A stretch of DNA of 64,000 bases from Candidatus Falkowbacteria bacterium (lineage in GTDB: Bacteria; Patescibacteriota; Patescibacteriia; CAIXNZ01): NCBI GenBank assembly GCA_963774955.1, contig CAVZGV010000004.1, positions 131,522 through 195,521 on the forward strand. The letters are read 5' to 3'. Under the pieces are notes generated by a model. The model worked only from the letters and a program-made list of their open reading frames with translations. It was not told the DNA's origin and ran no database searches. Positions 38,203 through 45,289 of the stretch are shown piece after piece (position 1 is the first letter of the stretch; every line of letters begins with the position of its first letter). The position numbers and the translations under genes are program-made.

Positions 38203-39090
38203 CTAGTCTTTAACCAGTCTATCTAAGGTATAAAAGATGCCTTCATCCCTAAAAAACATCACATTTTCACCCATAATTTGAACGTCGTAGGCATCTGAAG
38301 ATTTAGGAAACTCTTTATAGCTGGCGGTGCCAAAATCAATGATATATGCCTGGCTTAAATCGTGACTAATCATGATATTTTTTTCATGTAAATCCCGGTG
38401 GTGAAAGTTGTTTTTTTTCCATACATCCAGAGTATTGGCAACTTGATGCATTATTTTTTTTGGTAAAAACTTCCTCTTGCTTAAAATATTGAAAATGCGC
38501 TTTTTTAAATAATCTTCTAATTGAATATCGGTCATTTCAGCCCGCCTTGTTCTGGCCTCAAAGAAGCCTTCGATTACTAATTCTTCAAGATCTTTATCTG
38601 GCCAGGTCGTTACCTCAAAATTATCAACACCGAATAATAGCTCCTTAACTTTATCTTGGGGGATAGTCTTGGCCACTTCTTCCAACATTAAACGATATAA
38701 TGTCTTAGCTTCGAGCCTATGCATGATTAATAATTTATCACCAGCAGAAGTTTCAATATAAAATGAAGGCAGGGGAACTAAAGCAACCGGTTTGCCTTCT
38801 GCCTGTCTTTGCTTAACTAATAAAAAAGCTTGAGCCTGCAAATCCAATTCTTGTTCCATTGTTTTACTATACGCCTTTTTGGGACTCTGATGTTCTTCTC
38901 TTTTGACACAATAAGACAAGCCTTCCCAGTCAGCCATATAAACCTCGGCAATACTGCCGCTGCCAATATTATATTGATCTCTTACTGATTCCAAAAAAGT
39001 TTTAGCCATAGCTAAAACCACCTTCTTTTCTTTTTCAACTTCTGTCGCAGGCAGTGCTTCAGCAGGAATGATCTTGGTAATTTCACCCAT
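38203..39090 (-). CDS. Eukaryotic-like Ser/Thr protein kinase domain protein
   Basis: A VAIK-like YCVKRE block, catalytic loop HHRDLHEKNIMIS, and DFG motif IIDFGTAS. Confidence 0.6.
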   Translation of the reverse strand: MGEITKIIPAEALPATEVEKEKKVVLAMAKTFLESVRDQYNIGSGSIAEVYMADWEGLSYCVKREEHQSPKKAYSKTMEQELDLQAQAFLLVKQRQAEGKPVALVPLPSFYIETSAGDKLLIMHRLEAKTLYRLMLEEVAKTIPQDKVKELLFGVDNFEVTTWPDKDLEELVIEGFFEARTRRAEMTDIQLEDYLKKRIFNILSKRKFLPKKIMHQVANTLDVWKKNNFHHRDLHEKNIMISHDLSQAYIIDFGTASYKEFPKSSDAYDVQIMGENVMFFRDEGIFYTLDRLVKD

Positions 39091-39252: not shown

Positions 39253-39327
39253 TTTGATATTCGGGGATGTGGGACTTGCCCGCCGAAGGCGGGTCCGCCT
39301 CTGGCGGAAACCCACCGGTTTTGATAT
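39253..39327 (-). repeat. Direct repeat of the tRNA-Pro 3' end plus ~20 nt of its downstream flank (aagtcccacaYccccgaatatcaaaa..tgggttt), separated by two GC hairpins (cccgccgaaggcggg and tccgcctctggcgga)
   Basis: Seen directly; resembles an att-site scar. Confidence 0.5.
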
Positions 39328-39399
39328 TCGGGGTGTGGGACTTGAACCCACGACCTTCTGGTCCCAAACCAGACGCGCTAGCCAACTGCGCTAACCCCG
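39328..39399 (-). tRNA. tRNA-Pro(TGG)
   Basis: cggggtt-agcgcagttggctagcgc..tctgg-ttTGGga-ccaga..gtcgtgggttcaagtcccac-accccg-a cloverleaf. Confidence 0.85.
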
Positions 39400-39471
39400 T
39401 TATTAATAATTTTCAGTAACCAATAATCAACTTCCAATAATTTTTAAATTAAAATTACCGTTGAGATTACT

Positions 39472-39546
<75 letters not shown>

Positions 39547-39604
39547 ACGTCACTGCGCGAGCGACGTGCCGAGGCTCGTCGTTTGCGAGTTAAAATAGTT
39601 TGGG

Positions 39605-39678
39605 TGCGCGTGGGAGGACTCGAACCTCCGACCTCGTCATTATCAGTGACGCGCTCTAACCAGCTGAGCTACACGCGC
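39605..39678 (-). tRNA. tRNA-Ile(GAT), in the 16S-downstream spacer
   Basis: gcgcgtg-ta-gctcagctggttagagc-g-cgtca-ctGATaa-tgacg-aggtc-ggagg-ttcgagt-cctcc-cacgcgc-a. Confidence 0.85.
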
Positions 39679-39694
39679 TTATTTGATTAATTTT

Positions 39695-39753
39695 GCGCTC
39701 TAACCAGCTGACCTGCCCGCCGAAGCTTTAGCGTAGGCGGGAGCTACACGCGC
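39695..39753 (-). pseudogene. Partial tRNA-Ile 5' segment (acceptor 5' strand plus D-arm) interrupted in the D-arm by a 29-nt GC-rich insert ccgcctacgctaaagcttcggcgggcagg
   Basis: gcgcgtgtagctc-[insert]-tcagctggttagagcgc, directly upstream of the intact tRNA-Ile. The insert termini match the extensions at the tRNA-Gly halves. Confidence 0.55.
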
Positions 39754-39986
39754 AAATTATTTTAAAATATTTTCAACTTCTAACAACAAATTTCTAATCC
39801 CTGGCAAGATAATATAATCTAAGTTTAACAAAAAGGGCTGGCTCGATCAATATCATAAAACGATCTTAACTAAGCCAGCCTCTTTTGATAAGTCCTTAAC
39901 TCCTAAAAAGTGATAGAATCGCCGTTGTCCAAATTAATGGACTCGACCTAATAGAGTAAAACATTTTCATGTAATTACTTATTTAC

Positions 39987-41495
<1,509 letters not shown>

Positions 41496-42213: not shown

Positions 42214-42969
42214 TTATGGCTTAAACCTATCCCAAACCATATCATGAATTGAATTCATTGAATCGGCAACATCTTTATTTTTTATTAAAACTGCAAATGG
42301 ATTTTCTTCTGTCGTAAAAATTATAACCATATCATCTAAAACACCAAATGAGGCTTTTATGGGGTAAGTACGAGGTGAAACTACAATTGAAGCCCTTAAT
42401 TCATCAACGTCATTCTTTAAAACATCCCTAAGTATAGGGGAATCCGGGCTGCCTGAAATGATCGTTCTGCCCTTTATTTGTTTACTTACTCTATTATTAA
42501 TAGATTGAGCAATTTGTTTTTTTCCATGTTGTAAAATTGCCGCTTCAACATTCTCAAAAGCTTTACCTAACTTGGTTTGTGCATTTTCAAACCACAAATC
42601 AGAGGCCAGTTGTACGCCTTCAATCCCGGAATAATAACTTATTGCTAGCTTCTTTTCTGGAACATTAATGATTTTGGTCAAATCTTCTGTAATCTCATCT
42701 AGCGTCACTATTTTCCTTTCCAGCAAATGACGTAATTGCTTTGGGCTGATTGCTTGATATAATTTTCGTTTATAAACTTTTATGACTGACAAGAATCCTT
42801 TATCCGTAAGATTTTGTATATGACGATAAGCTGCAGTCCTTGGAATACTAGCTTTTTTAGCTAAATCAGTTAAGGAAACTGTATCAAAATTCAAAGCTGC
42901 CCAATAAAGCTTAGCTTCATAGTTGTTAAGATTAAATACTTTTTGTAGTTGTTCTAGTTGTTTGTCCAT
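42214..42969 (-). CDS. TrmB-family transcriptional regulator (paralog of 36004-36771)
   Basis: N-terminal wHTH (NNYEAKLYWAALNFDTVSLTDLAKKASIPRTAAYRHIQNLTDKGFL). Confidence 0.65.
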   Translation of the reverse strand: MDKQLEQLQKVFNLNNYEAKLYWAALNFDTVSLTDLAKKASIPRTAAYRHIQNLTDKGFLSVIKVYKRKLYQAISPKQLRHLLERKIVTLDEITEDLTKIINVPEKKLAISYYSGIEGVQLASDLWFENAQTKLGKAFENVEAAILQHGKKQIAQSINNRVSKQIKGRTIISGSPDSPILRDVLKNDVDELRASIVVSPRTYPIKASFGVLDDMVIIFTTEENPFAVLIKNKDVADSMNSIHDMVWDRFKP

Positions 42970-43137
42970 ATAGCAAGTATATAAAATGACGCGAATTGCG
43001 TCAAATTTTTAAACAATAAACATGCTAAAATTAGCCAAATAGTGTCTTTTGCTTAGCTATTTTTACTTTAATTCTTTACAAATCAATGATTTAAGATACT
43101 ATACAAGCAGGTACATTGAAAAACAAAGGAGGCGAAA

Positions 43138-43365
43138 ATGAGGTTAATTGACAAATTGGACCCAGAAAAGATTGGCAATCCGCATCTAAAAAAATTAGTA
43201 CAACATCTCAAAATGGGTGTACTAGCGGATGTTGACCCTCTGCAAATTACGCCGGAAACAGCCCAAAGATTTCAAAGATGGAACCATCATACAGATCATA
43301 GAGACTATCAACAACATTCTGATTACTCAAACACGGGGCCTTCCCATGGCGATTATTGTGATTAG
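43138..43365 (+). CDS. Candidate RiPP precursor peptide (75 aa; His/Asp/Tyr-rich C-terminus ...NHHTDHRDYQQHSDYSNTGPSHGDYCD)
   Basis: RBS AAAGGAGG. Its stop lies 10 nt before the maturase start, so the two are translationally linked. Confidence 0.4.
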   Translation: MRLIDKLDPEKIGNPHLKKLVQHLKMGVLADVDPLQITPETAQRFQRWNHHTDHRDYQQHSDYSNTGPSHGDYCD

Positions 43366-43375
43366 GGAGAATGAA

Positions 43376-44473
43376 ATGGAAAGCAATGTCATCAGTAAAG
43401 ATTTAACTGTGGTTATCAAGCCGACAAGAAACTGTAATCTGCGTTGCAGGTATTGTTCAGTCGGCGATCCGGACTCCAGAACCCTAACTGAAGCAGAGGT
43501 TGAACAGGTGATTAAAAAAATAGTCACCCGCGATTCGGTAAGTTATACAAAATTTATCTGGCATGGCGGCGAACCTCTTTTGGCAGGCCTTAACTTTTAC
43601 CGAAGAATTACAGAAATTCAAAAGCCTTTGCTTGAGCAGGGATTTGAAATCAGGAATGTCGTCCAAACAAACGGCACTCTTATTACTGACGATTGGGCAA
43701 AATTTTTCAAGCTGAATAATTTCGGAGTGGGCCTATCCGTAGACGGACCAAAGGAAATTAACGACCGCACCAGAGTTTTTTCAAAAAACAAAGGCGCTTT
43801 CGTTGCAATAAAAAAAGGCGCCCAAATCCTTGAGGAAAACGGGGTCGAATATGGGTATCTTGCGGTAATCAGCCAGCACAACGTTGCTGAAGTTGAAGAA
43901 ATCATCGACTTCATGCATAGCGAAAACAAAAGATACAAGCTGGTAGCTGTTTCACCCATCGGACGGGCGGCAGAAGCTTATCAAAGCATAATGCCGGCCG
44001 GAAATAGCTATGCGTTCTCGCAGAAAAAGCTGCTTAGTAGATGGCTGAAGGAAGGCCATTTTACTGATCGATCTGCGCTGTGGAAATATATTGTCCCGGT
44101 TCTGACCGGCACTCCGATTGAATGCGTTTTCTTTAAAAATTGCCAGGCATCATTTATCGGCGTAGATTCCAACGCTGATGTTTTTCCCTGCGGACGTTTC
44201 TGCGGCGGCAATAATTACAGATACGGCAATTTAATCAGCGATGATTTTAGCAGTATCTGGAATCATCCGGCCAGAATCGAGCTGACAAAGAGATCTGAGA
44301 TTCTAACAAAATGCCACCGGTGTAAATTTTTTTCTATCTGCCATGGCGGCTGTCCTCTTCAGGGAATTTTGAATGGCGGGTCCCAAAAAGAAGACTACAA
44401 TTGTTCCCAGTATTTTGAAATCTTTTCTGCCATCGAAGAGGAAATCCTAAAAGCTGGCGGGCTCAACGCTTAA
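43376..44473 (+). CDS. Radical SAM enzyme with a C-terminal SPASM domain (peptide-modifying maturase family)
   Basis: CNLRCRYC (CxxxCxxC) plus a C-terminal Cys cluster CHRCKFFSICHGGCP and a further CQASFIGVD..C..C cluster. The start is trimmed to ATG 43376 after RBS GGGAGA. A terminator follows at 44480-44512. Confidence 0.7.
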   Translation: MESNVISKDLTVVIKPTRNCNLRCRYCSVGDPDSRTLTEAEVEQVIKKIVTRDSVSYTKFIWHGGEPLLAGLNFYRRITEIQKPLLEQGFEIRNVVQTNGTLITDDWAKFFKLNNFGVGLSVDGPKEINDRTRVFSKNKGAFVAIKKGAQILEENGVEYGYLAVISQHNVAEVEEIIDFMHSENKRYKLVAVSPIGRAAEAYQSIMPAGNSYAFSQKKLLSRWLKEGHFTDRSALWKYIVPVLTGTPIECVFFKNCQASFIGVDSNADVFPCGRFCGGNNYRYGNLISDDFSSIWNHPARIELTKRSEILTKCHRCKFFSICHGGCPLQGILNGGSQKEDYNCSQYFEIFSAIEEEILKAGGLNA

Positions 44474-44578
44474 ATAAACCAAAAACCCCGGACATTCGTT
44501 CGGGGCTTTTTTATTTTGCTAATATTACTACTGTCTATAGTTGACTATTGACAGTAAACAGTCAACCGTCAACTATGA

Positions 44579-45289
44579 CTAATCTAAAATTAATTTGTCC
44601 ATTTCCTTTTTCATTTTCATCAATTTGGCTGTATCTTCAGCAATAGCTTTATAATTTTGCACTTCATTCAATATAATATTTTTATTGCAAATTTCATCAC
44701 CTTTAATCCCTAAATAAGCAGGATAACTACACCAAGGGTAATCAGCGGCGTTGTCTGTTATTCCATGAATCTGAGCATTGGCGTTTACATAGACTGAAAG
44801 GTAAAGCAGATGTTCAAATGAGTCTATTTGCTTAAACTTGAACTTTCCCTGAAATAAATAGCCGCTACGATCATTTCTTCGATTAAAATAATTGGTATAA
44901 CCAAGACTAACCTTATGCATAAATTTTGAGATGCCATTATCAACCAATTGTTTTAAAATGAGGTGAAAATGATTGGGGTTAAGGCAGTAGCAAATAATTT
45001 CAACCAGGCGGGAGTCCTCTAGGGATCCAATTCCCAATTGGGAATTGGATCCCTTAGCGACTTCCTCGGATTCTTTTTTATTCTGGTATGCTTTTTCGTA
45101 TAAACTGCCAATCGGATTTAAACAATTAAATCCCTTTAAACTTGTTAAAAATCTCGAGTAATCATCCTCATCTAAAAAAATATCGCGCTTATCAGTACCG
45201 CGATTATAAATGTGATAATATTCATTGTTACTAAAATTTATTTTTCGCATAAATACTAAAAAGTACGTTTCTTCTTTTTTTCTCTCCAC
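44579..45289 (-). CDS. IS200/IS605-like Y1 (HUH) transposase family protein (RAYT-like), carrying an in-frame perfect palindrome
   Basis: YHIYNRG...HFHLIL (HuH motif) ...Y. The 34-bp perfect palindrome agggatccaattcccaattgggaattggatccct at 45018-45058 encodes GSNSQLGIGSLEDS. The gene overlaps the trmD 3' end by 34 bp. Confidence 0.55.
   Translation of the reverse strand: MERKKEETYFLVFMRKINFSNNEYYHIYNRGTDKRDIFLDEDDYSRFLTSLKGFNCLNPIGSLYEKAYQNKKESEEVAKGSNSQLGIGSLEDSRLVEIICYCLNPNHFHLILKQLVDNGISKFMHKVSLGYTNYFNRRNDRSGYLFQGKFKFKQIDSFEHLLYLSVYVNANAQIHGITDNAADYPWCSYPAYLGIKGDEICNKNIILNEVQNYKAIAEDTAKLMKMKKEMDKLILD

What the first reader, a model, noticed from the sequence alone, without database searches (positions are those of the whole stretch)
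43138..44512. Candidate RiPP locus: 75-aa His/Asp/Tyr-rich precursor immediately upstream of a radical SAM/SPASM maturase
ORF 43138-43365 (RBS AAAGGAGG) ends 10 nt before the start of a radical SAM enzyme. The enzyme has CNLRCRYC and C-terminal SPASM-type Cys clusters (CHRCKFFSICHGGCP), the family that installs cross-links in sactipeptides, ranthipeptides, streptide and PQQ-like peptides.

The precursor's C-terminal core (WNHHTDHRDYQQHSDYSNTGPSHGDYCD) is rich in His, Tyr and Asp and has a single Cys. That fits a substrate for C-C or C-S cross-linking.

The unit has its own terminator (44480-44512) and lies between a TrmB-family regulator and an IS200-like transposase, which is an accessory context.
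Basis: partly seen in the sequence, partly recalled or inferred. Interest (0 to 1): 0.65.

Follow-up and report, generated by a model that had tools for sequence, protein, structure and literature searches.

The report
Peptide-plus-radical-SAM cassette in tiny symbionts
A small gene for a His/Tyr/Asp-rich peptide sits next to the radical SAM enzyme that most likely cross-links it, and this conserved pair, found only in ultra-small bacteria and archaea, looks like an undescribed branch of the ring-forming peptide natural products that include the antibiotic dynobactin.

Summary
A 75-aa ORF (43138-43365) with a strong ribosome-binding site ends 10 nt before a 365-aa radical SAM/SPASM gene (43376-44473), which is followed by a terminator.

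The small ORF is a real gene. I recovered 33 distinct homologues. In every locus with enough DNA to read they lie beside an orthologue of the enzyme (44-66% identity), in Patescibacteria/Parcubacteria and in DPANN archaea.

The peptides share a leader (I-x-N-P-H-L-K-x-L-V-x-x-L-K ... T-P-E-T-A-Q). The core is built from 3-9 repeats of [His/Tyr/Trp]-x-Asp: 194 observed against 55 ± 6 in shuffles. It nearly always ends H-G-D-Y-C-D.

The enzyme reaches no curated family cut-off. Its best match is the dynobactin maturase DynA (280 of 450 bits), then anaerobic sulfatase maturase (anSME, 230 of 349). It lacks the anSME catalytic Asp and groups with DynA-like peptide maturases.

The best reading is a triceptide-like product in which the enzyme links each aromatic ring to the beta-carbon of the Asp two residues on. 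This chemistry is inferred, not shown. Rivals are formylglycine formation on the penultimate Cys/Ser, a single thioether, and a cofactor or metal-binding role.

The cassette is a new variant of a known kind and of moderate interest.

The parts
42214..42969 (-). Divergently transcribed winged-helix regulator (TrmB-type HTH, 251 aa).
   Evidence: Pfam TrmB 51.2 bits, above the 25.6 cut-off. A divergent HTH regulator occupies the same position in L167, L168, L162, L081, L164 and L166. It is 43% identical to the L162 regulator. It is not detectably similar by BLASTP to the L167/L168 type.
42987..43003 (.). Perfect palindrome TGACGC-GAATT-GCGTCA, 18 nt upstream of the regulator's ATG. Probable operator overlapping the regulator's promoter-like site.
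   Evidence: The pattern TGACNN-N5-NNGTCA occurs once in the 64-kb window. It lies at the equivalent position in L167 (4835), L162 (3520) and L168 (4663). It overlaps the promoter-like site 43004..42976 on the minus strand. Binding by the regulator is inferred.
43075..43102 (+). Promoter-like site (TTTACA-16-TACTAT) upstream of the precursor gene. Weak.
   Evidence: Consensus scan, 9 of 12 matches. The number of such sites in the region is no greater than in shuffles, so this is only a candidate.
43125..43132 (+). Ribosome-binding site AAAGGAGG of the precursor gene.
   Evidence: Read directly from the sequence; 5 nt before the ATG at 43138.
43138..43278 (+). Leader region of the precursor (residues 1-47). 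Conserved motif I-G-N14-P-H-L17-K-K-L20-V-Q-H-L24-K, then D-P-L-x-I-T-P-E-T-A-Q.
   Evidence: N14 is invariant and L17, L20 and L24 are at least 90% conserved across 19 homologues. A related motif (I-x-N-P-x-L-+-x-I/L) occurs in small ORFs next to enzyme homologues of 30-36% identity. The leader/core boundary is inferred.
43279..43365 (+). Predicted core peptide W48-NH-[HTD][HRD]-YQQ-[HSD]-YSN-TGPS-[HGD][YCD] plus the stop codon.
   Evidence: Read in triplets, eight start with an aromatic residue (WNH HTD HRD YQQ HSD YSN ... HGD YCD), and five of these are [H/Y/W]-x-D. Across the 33 family cores there are 194 such motifs against 54.8 ± 5.8 in composition-preserving shuffles (0 of 3000 reach the observed count), with 3-9 per core. 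D53, D56 and D75 are invariant.
43364..43369 (+). Ribosome-binding site AGGGAG of the radical SAM gene, overlapping the precursor stop codon.
   Evidence: Read directly from the sequence; 6 nt before the ATG at 43376. The position suggests coupled translation (inferred).
43376..44473 (+). Radical SAM/SPASM peptide maturase, 365 aa, with no N-terminal RRE domain. It has CX3CX2C at C20/C24/C27, two complete auxiliary-cluster Cys sets and the clade motif P-C272-G-R274-F-C276-G.
   Evidence: Pfam Radical_SAM and SPASM. NCBIfam DynA 280 of 450 bits and anSME 230 of 349, so below all cut-offs. The AF2 model has pLDDT 90.3. Foldseek gives anSMEcpe TM 0.85 and the triceptide synthase ChlB TM 0.83.
44486..44515 (+). 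Intrinsic terminator (CCCCGGAC-ATTC-GTTCGGGG plus a T-run) closing the two-gene operon.
   Evidence: Terminator scan: 8 pairs, 6 of them G-C.

Best explanation
This is a three-part accessory cassette: a divergent HTH regulator with a palindromic operator, a precursor peptide gene, and a radical SAM/SPASM maturase gene. It makes a ribosomally synthesised, post-translationally modified peptide (RiPP).

The proposed steps are:

1. The maturase binds the roughly 47-residue leader through the conserved N-P-H-L-K-x-L-V-x-x-L-K helix. It has no separate RRE domain, as in anSME-fold cyclophane synthases.
2. It cleaves SAM reductively at the C20/C24/C27 cluster.
3. The 5'-deoxyadenosyl radical abstracts a beta-hydrogen from the Asp at position 3 of each [His/Tyr/Trp]-x-Asp motif.
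4. The resulting carbon radical adds to the aromatic ring two residues upstream. The two auxiliary clusters take the electron.
5. Each motif becomes a three-residue cyclophane (-2 Da per motif). The window peptide would carry five to eight rings, as in triceptides and dynobactin.

Arg274, in the clade-specific P-C-G-R-F motif, sits one residue after the position of the anSME catalytic Asp. It is a candidate for holding the Asp carboxylate.

Shown here: gene anatomy, cofactor-binding motifs, fold, conservation of the pair, the leader and repeat structure, and the conserved operator. Inferred: the cross-link chemistry, the role of Arg274, leader removal, and the function of the product. No protease or exporter is in the cassette.
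For: **The pair is real and conserved.**
- Precursor homologues lie next to enzyme orthologues of 44-66% identity in L081, L161-L169.
- Thirty-three distinct precursors were found.
- The profile finds only 23 clusters among 1.84 billion representative proteins.

**The core pattern is triceptide-like.**
- [HYWF]-x-D: 194 observed against 54.8 ± 5.8 in shuffles.
- D-x-aromatic, aromatic-x-aromatic and H-x-Y are all depleted.
- Isolated motifs are followed by Thr, Ser or Gly, so the unit is aromatic-x-D and not D-aromatic.
- Triceptides are defined by aromatic-to-C-beta links on aromatic1-X2-X3 motifs, including His-C2 links (PMC11499958). Several such motifs in one peptide are each modified by one enzyme (PMC12912966).

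**The enzyme fits a peptide cyclophane synthase.**
- Its best curated hit is DynA over the full length.
- The genuine DynA locus with its precursor ...WNSNVHSYRF was recovered as L030 at 30% identity.
- The neighbour-joining tree places the clade with DynA-like and 'CGRF' enzymes, with no anSME-like members in that group.
- Of 38 'CGRF' enzymes, 61% have a neighbouring ORF with at least 3 aromatic-x-D motifs. The figure is 0 of 16 for DynA-like and 0 of 24 for anSME-like enzymes.
- The model superposes on ChlB, a solved triceptide synthase, at TM 0.83.
- All cluster ligands are conserved.
Against: - No chemistry was measured.
- The enzyme passes no curated cyclophane-synthase model. GrrM/OscB, AmcB and YhhB match only its N-terminal half.
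- By sequence and fold it is marginally closer to anSMEcpe than to ChlB.
- In the papers I could read, no characterised triceptide has Asp at X3.
- The repeats are tandem, so D-aromatic adjacency is also enriched (78 against 34.5).
- The shuffle statistics treat related sequences as independent.
- The C-terminus [C/S]-D is conserved in nearly all members, even where the final aromatic-x-D is broken (P0134 ends NSD, P0138 ends TCD). The cyclophane model does not explain this.
- The association between 'CGRF' and aromatic-x-D substrates is confounded by phylogeny.
Confidence: 0.55

Rival explanations
1. anSME-like oxidation. The enzyme abstracts a beta-hydrogen from the conserved penultimate Cys (Ser in some homologues) and converts it to formylglycine or another oxidised residue. 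The His/Asp/Tyr repeats would then be functional, for example metal-binding, and not sites of modification.
For: - The closest solved structure by sequence and fold is anSMEcpe (142 bits, TM 0.85).
- TIGR03942 is the second-best curated hit over the full length.
- 32 of 33 precursors end in [C/S]-D, and Cys is replaced by Ser in P0128 and P0134. This matches the Cys/Ser duality of anSME substrates (established knowledge).
Against: - The score is below the anSME cut-off (230 of 349).
- Asp277, the proposed catalytic base of anSMEcpe (my recollection of Goldman et al. 2013), aligns with an almost invariant Gly273.
- The sulfatase motif C/S-x-P/A-x-R is absent, because only one residue follows the Cys.
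- The clade groups away from 'CDF[YF]' anSME-like enzymes.
- It does not explain the strict aromatic-x-D register.
Confidence: 0.12
2. A single thioether (sacti- or ranthipeptide-type) link from Cys74 to the alpha- or beta-carbon of another residue, for example an Asp beta-carbon as in PapB.
For: - The SPASM architecture is shared with thioether synthases. CteB scores 71 bits and TM 0.78; the PapB model scores 128.7 bits.
- The Cys is conserved and Asp is abundant.
- PapB links Cys to the Asp beta-carbon (my knowledge), which shows that abstracting an Asp beta-hydrogen is feasible.
Against: - There is only one Cys per peptide, and it is Ser in two family members.
- The PapB and SCIFF models fall far below their cut-offs.
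- One link would not account for 3-9 conserved repeats.
Confidence: 0.08
3. The modified peptide is not an exported antibiotic-like product. It is an intracellular cofactor precursor or a pre-organised metal chelator, and the conserved C-terminal P-x-H-G-D-Y-C-D is the functional end (compare PqqA/PqqE and MftA/MftC). This is compatible with cyclophane chemistry but gives the system a different biological role.
For: - No protease or transporter lies in the cassette in any locus examined.
- The C-terminal octapeptide is far more conserved than is usual for antimicrobial cores.
- The core composition is 20% Asp, 13% His and 9% Tyr, plus one Cys.
- The host genomes are small.
Against: - No partner enzymes of the PQQ or mycofactocin type are nearby.
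- The mycofactocin maturase model scores only 75.5 bits.
- The number of repeats varies from 3 to 9, which is unlike a cofactor precursor.
- The distribution is rare and patchy: 23 clusters in 1.84 billion representatives.
Confidence: 0.2
4. The small ORF is a chance ORF, or a non-substrate small protein, next to an orphan radical SAM enzyme.
For: The first search with the single sequence found only itself. No Pfam or NCBIfam model hits it.
Against: A profile search recovers 33 homologues. Synteny with the enzyme is conserved across two domains of life, the leader motif is conserved, and the C-terminus is invariant.
Confidence: 0.02

Closest known systems
DynA/dynobactin system (NCBIfam NF041298; Photorhabdus)
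   Same: - It is the best curated hit over the full length (280 bits).
- Both are RRE-less rSAM/SPASM enzymes of about 360-400 aa beside a small precursor.
- The leaders share an N-x-x-L-x-x-x-hydrophobic element: W-N-N-A-L-L-D in L030 and G-N-P-H-L-K-K-L here.
- The same neighbour-joining clade holds both.
- DynA makes aromatic-to-C-beta links, including one from His (my recollection of Miller et al. 2022).
   Different: - Identity is only 30% and the score is below the 450-bit cut-off.
- Here the precursor gene is upstream; in DynA loci it is downstream.
- The core is not W-N-S-N-V-H-S-Y-R-F, and H-x-Y is depleted (1 against 13.4).
- The motif after the auxiliary-cluster Cys is C-G-R-F, not C-A-S-L-S.
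- The hosts are CPR bacteria and DPANN archaea, not Gammaproteobacteria.
Triceptide synthases / three-residue cyclophane-forming enzymes (ChlB, HtkB, HaaB, YhhB, XyeB, GrrM/OscB, MicB)
   Same: - The core is built of aromatic1-X2-X3 motifs, with several per peptide.
- His and Tyr serve as the ring donor.
- The fold is anSME-like (ChlB TM 0.83).
- One enzyme, with no RRE, handles many motifs (PMC11499958, PMC12912966).
   Different: - X3 is almost always Asp. The characterised motifs I could find are HTK, HAA, HNR, YDR, YSK, HAS, FTK, WVN, FAR and WSK.
- All specific HMMs are far below cut-off, and some match only the N-terminal half.
- Up to 9 tandem motifs occur.
- A [C/S]-D C-terminus is conserved.
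- The cluster holds no protease or transporter.
Anaerobic sulfatase-maturating enzyme anSMEcpe (PDB 4K36-4K39; TIGR03942)
   Same: It is the closest solved structure (142 bits, TM 0.85). It has the identical set of three [4Fe-4S] cluster ligands and a similar length.
   Different: - The score is below cut-off.
- The equivalent of Asp277 is Gly.
- There is no sulfatase substrate and no C/S-x-P/A-x-R motif.
- A dedicated small peptide partner is present.
His-Xaa-Ser system (HxsA repeats with HxsB/HxsC radical SAM enzymes; TIGR03978)
   Same: The concept is the same: a small peptide made of repeated His-x-(small residue) triplets encoded next to rSAM/SPASM maturases.
   Different: - The HxsB model scores 88.9 of 370 bits.
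- There is a single maturase and no HxsC or HxsD.
- The repeat is H/Y-x-D, not H-x-S.
Uncharacterised relatives found here: Methanosarcinales (L003/L004), gut Bacteroidales (L131/L039/L103) and others
   Same: - The enzymes are 30-36% identical and share the C-G-R-F motif.
- The neighbouring small ORFs have a similar leader (I-x-N-x-x-[LV]).
- Their cores are rich in Y/H-x-D, for example ...YTDYNDCHGDYYDYDK.
   Different: - The precursor gene is usually downstream.
- The C-termini differ.
- None reaches a curated cut-off.
- None is recovered by the precursor profile of this family.

Membership tests
Radical SAM/SPASM RiPP maturase with cognate precursor | CX3CX2C radical SAM cluster motif | tested here: met
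   C20-N-L-R-C24-R-Y-C27. Pfam Radical_SAM 71.6 bits, above the 29.5 cut-off.
Radical SAM/SPASM RiPP maturase with cognate precursor | C-terminal SPASM domain with ligands for two auxiliary [4Fe-4S] clusters | tested here: met
   Pfam SPASM 26.3 bits, above the 21.5 cut-off. C250, C256, C272, C326 and C313, C316, C322, C343 align with anSMEcpe C255, C261, C276, C330 and C317, C320, C326, C348. All eight are invariant or nearly invariant in the clade.
Radical SAM/SPASM RiPP maturase with cognate precursor | Small precursor gene conserved next to the enzyme, with a conserved leader and a distinct core | tested here: met
   Adjacent in L081 and L161-L169, with a shared leader motif.
Radical SAM/SPASM RiPP maturase with cognate precursor | The enzyme modifies the peptide | not testable with these tools
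   Needs co-expression and mass spectrometry.
DynA (dynobactin maturase, NF041298, equivalog) | Score at or above the curated cut-off (450 bits) | tested here: not met
   280.4 bits. The true DynA (L030) is 30% identical.
DynA (dynobactin maturase, NF041298, equivalog) | Dynobactin-type core (W-x-x ... H/Y-x-Y-x-F at the C-terminus) | tested here: not met
   H-x-Y occurs once against 13.4 expected. The C-terminus is Y-C-D. DynA-like loci carry ...WSGNVYKYNF.
Anaerobic sulfatase maturase (TIGR03942) | Score at or above the curated cut-off (349.45 bits) | tested here: not met
   229.8 bits.
Anaerobic sulfatase maturase (TIGR03942) | Catalytic Asp following the third auxiliary-cluster-I Cys (anSMEcpe D277) | tested here: not met
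   P-C272-G273-R274 aligns with P-C276-D277-F278. The role of D277 is from my memory of Goldman et al. 2013; I found no paper in the library to confirm it.
Anaerobic sulfatase maturase (TIGR03942) | Sulfatase substrate with C/S-x-P/A-x-R | tested here: not met
   The window has no sulfatase-motif ORF apart from a 41-codon chance match. The precursor Cys is followed only by Asp and the stop codon.
Triceptides (three-residue cyclophane RiPPs) | Core contains aromatic1-X2-X3 motifs | tested here: met
   There are 3-9 [HYWF]-x-D motifs per core, 194 against 54.8 ± 5.8. The definition is from PMC11499958.
Triceptides (three-residue cyclophane RiPPs) | Maturase belongs to a recognised cyclophane-synthase family | tested here: inconclusive
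   All are below cut-off: GrrM/OscB 132 of 310, AmcB 135 of 425, YhhB 105 of 445. The fold matches ChlB at TM 0.83, and the enzyme shares a clade with DynA-like enzymes. The published similarity network of cyclophane synthases could not be queried.
Triceptides (three-residue cyclophane RiPPs) | Aromatic-carbon to X3 C-beta cross-link (-2 Da per motif) | not testable with these tools
   Needs MS/MS and NMR.
Daropeptides (DarE type) | Aromatic1-X2-aromatic3 motif with an ether link; DarE model cut-off 650 bits | tested here: not met
   Aromatic-x-aromatic is depleted, 28 against 67.0. DarE scores 175 bits. Only the W-N-H / W-H-H start of some members fits the motif.
Sactipeptides / ranthipeptides | Several Cys donors in the core | tested here: not met
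   The core has one Cys, replaced by Ser in P0128 and P0134. PapB scores 128.7 of 340 and SCIFF 85.5 of 425.
His-Xaa-Ser system | HxsB/HxsC pair with HxsD and an H-x-S repeat peptide | tested here: not met
   HxsB scores 88.9 of 370. The window has a single maturase, and the repeat is H/Y-x-D.

The most novel reading that the evidence does not exclude
The cassette moves between CPR bacteria and DPANN archaea, the two groups of ultra-small, host-dependent prokaryotes. It would encode a previously unseen poly-cyclophane, with five to nine His/Tyr-to-Asp-C-beta rings in a row, whose rigid His/Asp/Tyr/Cys array acts as a metal-binding or redox-active peptide, or as an effector toward the host cell. 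If so, it would be a new cross-link chemistry and one of the first RiPP functions assigned to these lineages.
Probability: 0.2. Interest if true: 0.8.

Novelty: new variant of a known kind. Interest (0 to 1): 0.6.

Why it matters
- **Known chemistry worth extending.** Radical SAM cyclophane synthases make strained peptide macrocycles that include the BamA-targeting antibiotics darobactin and dynobactin.
- **An uncharacterised substrate logic.** This family would add tandem His/Tyr-x-Asp motifs, with an acidic residue at the cross-linked position. A candidate specificity motif (C-G-R-F) could be tested directly.
- **Unusual hosts.** The cassette occurs only in Patescibacteria/Parcubacteria and DPANN archaea. 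Their genomes are tiny and carry few biosynthetic genes, so keeping and exchanging this cassette suggests it matters for their symbiotic lifestyle.
- **Easy to test.** The minimal two-gene operon suits heterologous expression.
- **Wider relatives.** The same search showed related uncharacterised pairs in Methanosarcinales and in gut Bacteroidales, so the result would inform a much larger unannotated group.

Tried and rejected
1. **Single-sequence search with the precursor** found only itself. An alignment of precursors taken from neighbouring loci was needed.
Only L081 was close. Close loci had to be fetched one at a time by exact protein look-up. Two of those look-ups returned gene tables only: P0009 (no DNA held) and P0001 (2.35-kb contig, no DNA held). 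For P0006, DNA was available only from a second, short contig (L161).
3. **Dynobactin-like reading of W-N-H and H-x-x-Y** was rejected. W-N-H is not conserved (archaeal members start Y-N-D-G-P-G-H), and H-x-Y is depleted.
4. **Mapping the published X3-specificity residue** (HtkB D214 / HaaB H204, PMC11499958) onto this enzyme failed. The sequences are only in a supplement that is not held. The Pandoraea locus I had (L022) turned out to be DynA-like, not HtkB.
5. **Papers not held.** Miller et al. 2022 (dynobactin) and any paper on anSMEcpe D277 are not held, so those points rest on my own knowledge. Sugiyama et al. 2022 (the triceptide landscape) appeared only as a cited reference in my searches and I did not request it, so I cannot exclude that this cluster appears in its network.
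6. **Literature searches** for cyclophane or RiPP work in CPR, DPANN or archaea found nothing on this family.
7. **A common regulator family** across loci was rejected. The window and L162 share one type and L167 and L168 another. The two types are not similar by BLASTP, although the operator palindrome is shared. Archaeal loci use double-HTH AsnC-type proteins.
8. **A Cys-rich mini-ORF** seen beside the cassette in L167 and L168 is absent from the window.
Full report
**1. What is in the sequence**

The region reads as the first-stage reader described.
- AAAGGAGG (43125-43132) lies 5 nt before the ATG of a 75-codon ORF (43138-43365).
- Its TAG stop overlaps AGGGAG. Ten nucleotides after the stop, an ATG at 43376 opens a 365-codon ORF that ends at 44473.
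- A G+C-rich hairpin with a T-run follows at 44486-44515.
- Upstream and divergent is a 251-aa protein with a TrmB-type HTH (Pfam 51.2 bits).
- Downstream on the minus strand is a 236-aa ORF with a weak IS200-like (Y1 transposase) match (26.8 bits). Then come trmD, a KH-domain gene and rpsP.
- A bacterial 16S rRNA gene and three tRNAs lie just upstream, at 39327-41493.
- A neighbouring 691-aa protein falls in a 90%-identity cluster with a protein annotated 'Candidatus Parcubacteria bacterium'. The host is therefore most likely a CPR (Patescibacteria) bacterium, and the protein collection records a 455-kb contig for the enzyme.

**2. The enzyme**

- It has the radical SAM motif C20-x3-C24-x2-C27 and a SPASM domain.
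- All eight cysteines that ligate the two auxiliary clusters of anSMEcpe are present (C250, C256, C272, C326 and C313, C316, C322, C343). I confirmed the anSMEcpe numbering by counting along the printed alignment.
- They are conserved in 17 close homologues.
- There is no N-terminal extension that could be an RRE domain.
- The AlphaFold model is confident (pLDDT 90.3). It superposes almost equally well on anSMEcpe (TM 0.85) and on ChlB, a crystallised triceptide synthase (TM 0.83).

Against the curated NCBIfam models it passes none:

| Model | Score (bits) | Cut-off (bits) | Coverage |
|---|---|---|---|
| DynA | 280 | 450 | full length |
| anSME (TIGR03942) | 230 | 349 | full length |
| DarE | 175 | 650 | near full length |
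| DarW | 161 | 650 | most of length (7-333) |
| AmcB | 135 | 425 | N-terminal half |
| GrrM/OscB | 132 | 310 | N-terminal half |
| YhhB | 105 | 445 | N-terminal half |

**3. Is the small ORF a gene?**

The sequence alone finds only itself, so I looked next to enzyme homologues. The enzyme has a tight clade of relatives at 54-66% identity, two more at 44-47%, and then a very large set near 30-35%.

In every close locus with readable DNA, a small ORF with the same leader and tail lies next to the enzyme.

| Locus | Host as annotated or inferred | Position of the precursor gene(s) |
|---|---|---|
| L081 | Ca. Pacearchaeota | upstream |
| L164 | not assigned | upstream |
| L162/L163 | bacterial context | upstream |
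| L167 | Patescibacteria, 958-kb contig | upstream |
| L168 | bacterial context | upstream |
| L166 | archaeon (Alba, S17e, tRNA-intron endonuclease nearby) | upstream |
| L165 | not assigned | two copies downstream |
| L161, L169 | short contigs | upstream |

- A profile of seven such peptides found 19 family members.
- A profile of the 19, run against 1.84 billion representative proteins, found only 23 clusters at E ≤ 0.001. That brings the total to 33 distinct sequences.
- The gene is real, the family is rare, and no Pfam or NCBIfam model covers it.

**4. Anatomy of the precursor**

The leader carries I-x-N14-P-H-L17-K-x-L20-V-x-x-L24-K, and in most members D-P-L-x-x-T-P-E-T-A-Q.

The core is 20% Asp, 13% His and 9% Tyr and has a strict register. 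An aromatic residue (His 70, Tyr 43, Trp 2, Phe 1 in the first 19) is followed two positions later by Asp.

For example, P0124 reads G-K-[WHH][HTD][HTD][YTD][HTD]-TKPS-[HGD][YCD]. The window peptide reads R-[WNH][HTD][HRD][YQQ][HSD][YSN]-TGPS-[HGD][YCD].

Counts over the 33 cores, against composition-preserving shuffles:

| Pattern | Observed | Shuffles (mean ± sd) | Direction |
|---|---|---|---|
| aromatic-x-D | 194 | 54.8 ± 5.8 | enriched (0 of 3000 shuffles reach it) |
| D-x-aromatic | 27 | 54.5 ± 5.8 | depleted |
| aromatic-x-aromatic (daropeptide motif) | 28 | 67.0 ± 6.2 | depleted |
| H-x-Y (the His/Tyr spacing in the dynobactin core) | 1 | 13.4 ± 3.4 | depleted |

- Where a motif stands alone, the residue after Asp is Thr, Ser or Gly. 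The unit is therefore aromatic-x-Asp and not Asp-aromatic.
- The sequences are related, so these numbers are not true probabilities. However, the number of motifs (3-9) and their positions differ between members, and the most divergent ones (P0128, P0134, P0131, P0138, P0153-P0156) keep the rule.

**5. Placing the enzyme**

Among 155 non-identical relatives fetched with their neighbourhoods, the residues after the third auxiliary-cluster-I cysteine sort the enzymes into classes:
- **C-D-F-[YF].** Like anSMEcpe, where D277 is the proposed base (my recollection of Goldman et al. 2013). No peptide-like neighbours.
- **C-A-S-L-S.** This class includes the genuine DynA of Photorhabdus tasmaniensis (L030), whose downstream ORF ends ...SWNSNVHSYRF. 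That is the dynobactin A sequence (PMC10125368). The class also includes loci with ...WSGNVYKYNF cores.
- **C-G-R-F.** This class contains the window clade.

In a neighbour-joining tree the window clade sits inside a 67-member group made of C-G-R-F, C-x-R-F and DynA-like enzymes. That group holds no anSME-like members.

Twenty-three of 38 C-G-R-F enzymes (61%) have a neighbouring small ORF with at least three aromatic-x-Asp motifs. The figure is 0 of 16 for DynA-like and 0 of 24 for anSME-like enzymes. This association is confounded by shared ancestry.

It does show that related, unannotated pairs exist:
- Methanosarcinales (L003/L004: ...YRDHRDHKDSYHNDT...).
- Gut Bacteroidales (L131/L039: ...YTDYNDCHGDYYDYDK).
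- Other lineages.
- A separate C-D-E-F class from the metagenome scan (source not identified) with W-x-D repeats (L116/L117/L133).

None of these reaches a curated cut-off either.

**6. Most likely mechanism**

Triceptides are defined by a cross-link from an aromatic ring to the beta-carbon of the residue two positions on, within aromatic1-X2-X3 motifs. They are made by RRE-less rSAM/SPASM enzymes. His-C2 links are documented for HTK, HAA and HNR (PMC11499958). One enzyme can modify several motifs in one peptide (PMC12912966), and these enzymes share ancestry with the darobactin-type maturases (PMC12912966).

The window peptide is an array of such motifs with Asp at X3. I therefore propose the following steps:
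1. The enzyme binds the leader.
2. It generates the 5'-deoxyadenosyl radical.
3. The radical abstracts an Asp beta-hydrogen.
4. The carbon radical couples to the His, Tyr or Trp ring at position i-2.
5. This repeats along the core.

Abstraction of an Asp beta-hydrogen by a SPASM enzyme has a precedent in PapB (my knowledge).

Arg274, next to the position of the anSME base, is a plausible partner for the Asp carboxylate. This would mirror the published finding that a single acidic or basic active-site residue sets X3 specificity in HtkB and HaaB (PMC11499958). I could not map that residue directly.

All of this chemistry is inference. I give the 'RiPP pair' about 0.85 and the specific cyclophane chemistry about 0.55.

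**7. What the model does not explain**

The [C/S]-D end is conserved in all but one member, and Cys is swapped for Ser in two members. This recalls anSME substrates and keeps a formylglycine-type oxidation alive as a rival. The missing Asp277 equivalent, the sub-threshold score, the tree position and the absence of any sulfatase argue against it.

A single thioether is possible but cannot explain the repeats.

No cassette holds a protease or exporter, and the C-terminal octapeptide is unusually conserved. An intracellular cofactor or metal-binding role is therefore a serious alternative for the biology, and it is compatible with either chemistry.

**8. Regulation and mobility**

- A perfect palindrome, TGACGC-N5-GCGTCA (42987-43003), lies 18 nt upstream of the regulator's start. 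It overlaps a promoter-like site.
- The pattern TGACNN-N5-NNGTCA occurs once in the window. It occurs at the same place in the three other bacterial loci, even though their regulators fall into two types that BLASTP does not connect.
- Archaeal loci instead carry a double-HTH AsnC-type regulator.
- The flanking genes differ in every genome.
- The maturase gene is richer in G+C (0.44-0.455) than its flanks (0.32-0.39).
- The archaeal L081 enzyme (57% identical) sits in the distance tree beside the bacterial-context L163 enzyme (54%), within the clade that also holds the window and L167 enzymes (65%).
- L081 (Pacearchaeota) and L167 (Patescibacteria) come from the same metagenome.

Together this suggests an accessory cassette exchanged between CPR bacteria and DPANN archaea. 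A supported phylogeny is still needed.

**9. Verdict**

It needs sharpening in three ways:
- the operative feature is the tandem [H/Y/W]-x-Asp repeat;
- the nearest characterised relatives are DynA and the triceptide synthases, not thioether synthases;
- the unit includes a regulator and its operator.

It is not a member of any curated family. I rate it a new variant of a known kind, with interest 0.6.

Noticed in passing
window 39327-41493 (-): A complete bacterial 16S rRNA gene (39994-41493) is followed by three tRNAs (39605-39678, 39475-39546, 39327-39400). Rfam finds no 23S or 5S rRNA anywhere in the 64-kb window, so the rRNA genes appear unlinked.
   Followed up: no
window 44530-44576: A nest of short inverted repeats lies between the terminator and the end of the IS200-like ORF (44579-45289, -): ACTGTC/GACAGT, GTTGAC/GTCAAC and ATAGTTGAC/GTCAACTAT. 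That ORF gives only weak matches to Y1_Tnp and to the REP-associated tyrosine transposase model. The repeats could be REP-like hairpins. The ORF also overlaps the 3' end of trmD by 34 nt.
   Followed up: no
L167 6362-6487; L168 4804-4962: A 41-52-aa Cys-rich mini-ORF sits beside the cassette in two Patescibacteria loci. It has DnaJ-zinc-finger-like C-x-x-C-G-G-x-G motifs and a conserved end ...YKC(E/P)HCGGSGKC(N/S)C(K/R)ACKSYS. It is absent from the window.
   Followed up: partly
L165 2555-3710 and 5040-5608: This locus has two tandem precursor genes downstream of the maturase. Upstream it has a second radical SAM gene followed by a 45-aa ORF ending ...DSCGKCECSGTCCG, possibly a second, unrelated RiPP pair.
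   Followed up: no
L166 5094-6179: The archaeal locus carries a second rSAM/SPASM gene directly after the first, overlapping it by 8 nt, and then several small ORFs of unknown function.
   Followed up: no
L116, L117, L133 (and other loci with 'HCDEF' enzymes): A separate enzyme class (motif H-C-D-E-F) has upstream peptides made of Trp-x-Asp repeats, for example ...WPDWDDLDWDDHSDGWWPDWDKRIWPNWDDLPDWDDEG. This is another uncharacterised family with an aromatic-x-Asp pattern.
   Followed up: partly
L131, L039, L103 (uncultured Bacteroidales and related metagenome contigs): Enzymes 30-33% identical, carrying M-P-C-G-R-F-C-D, have upstream peptides such as ...FQDYSEHTDYDAYTDYNDCHGDYYDYDK. The C-H-G-D-Y element resembles the window family's S-H-G-D-Y-C-D. 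Similar enzymes are annotated only as 'radical SAM protein' in Prevotella, Paraprevotella and Duncaniella.
   Followed up: partly
window 43200-44400: G+C of the maturase gene (0.42-0.455) is clearly above that of the flanking genes (0.32-0.39). This is consistent with acquisition from elsewhere, but could also reflect amino-acid composition.
   Followed up: no
window 38203-39090 (-): A 295-aa ORF has a partial protein-kinase / APH-type phosphotransferase domain (Pfam Pkinase 43 bits). It lies between the tRNA cluster and an unannotated 109-aa ORF.
   Followed up: no
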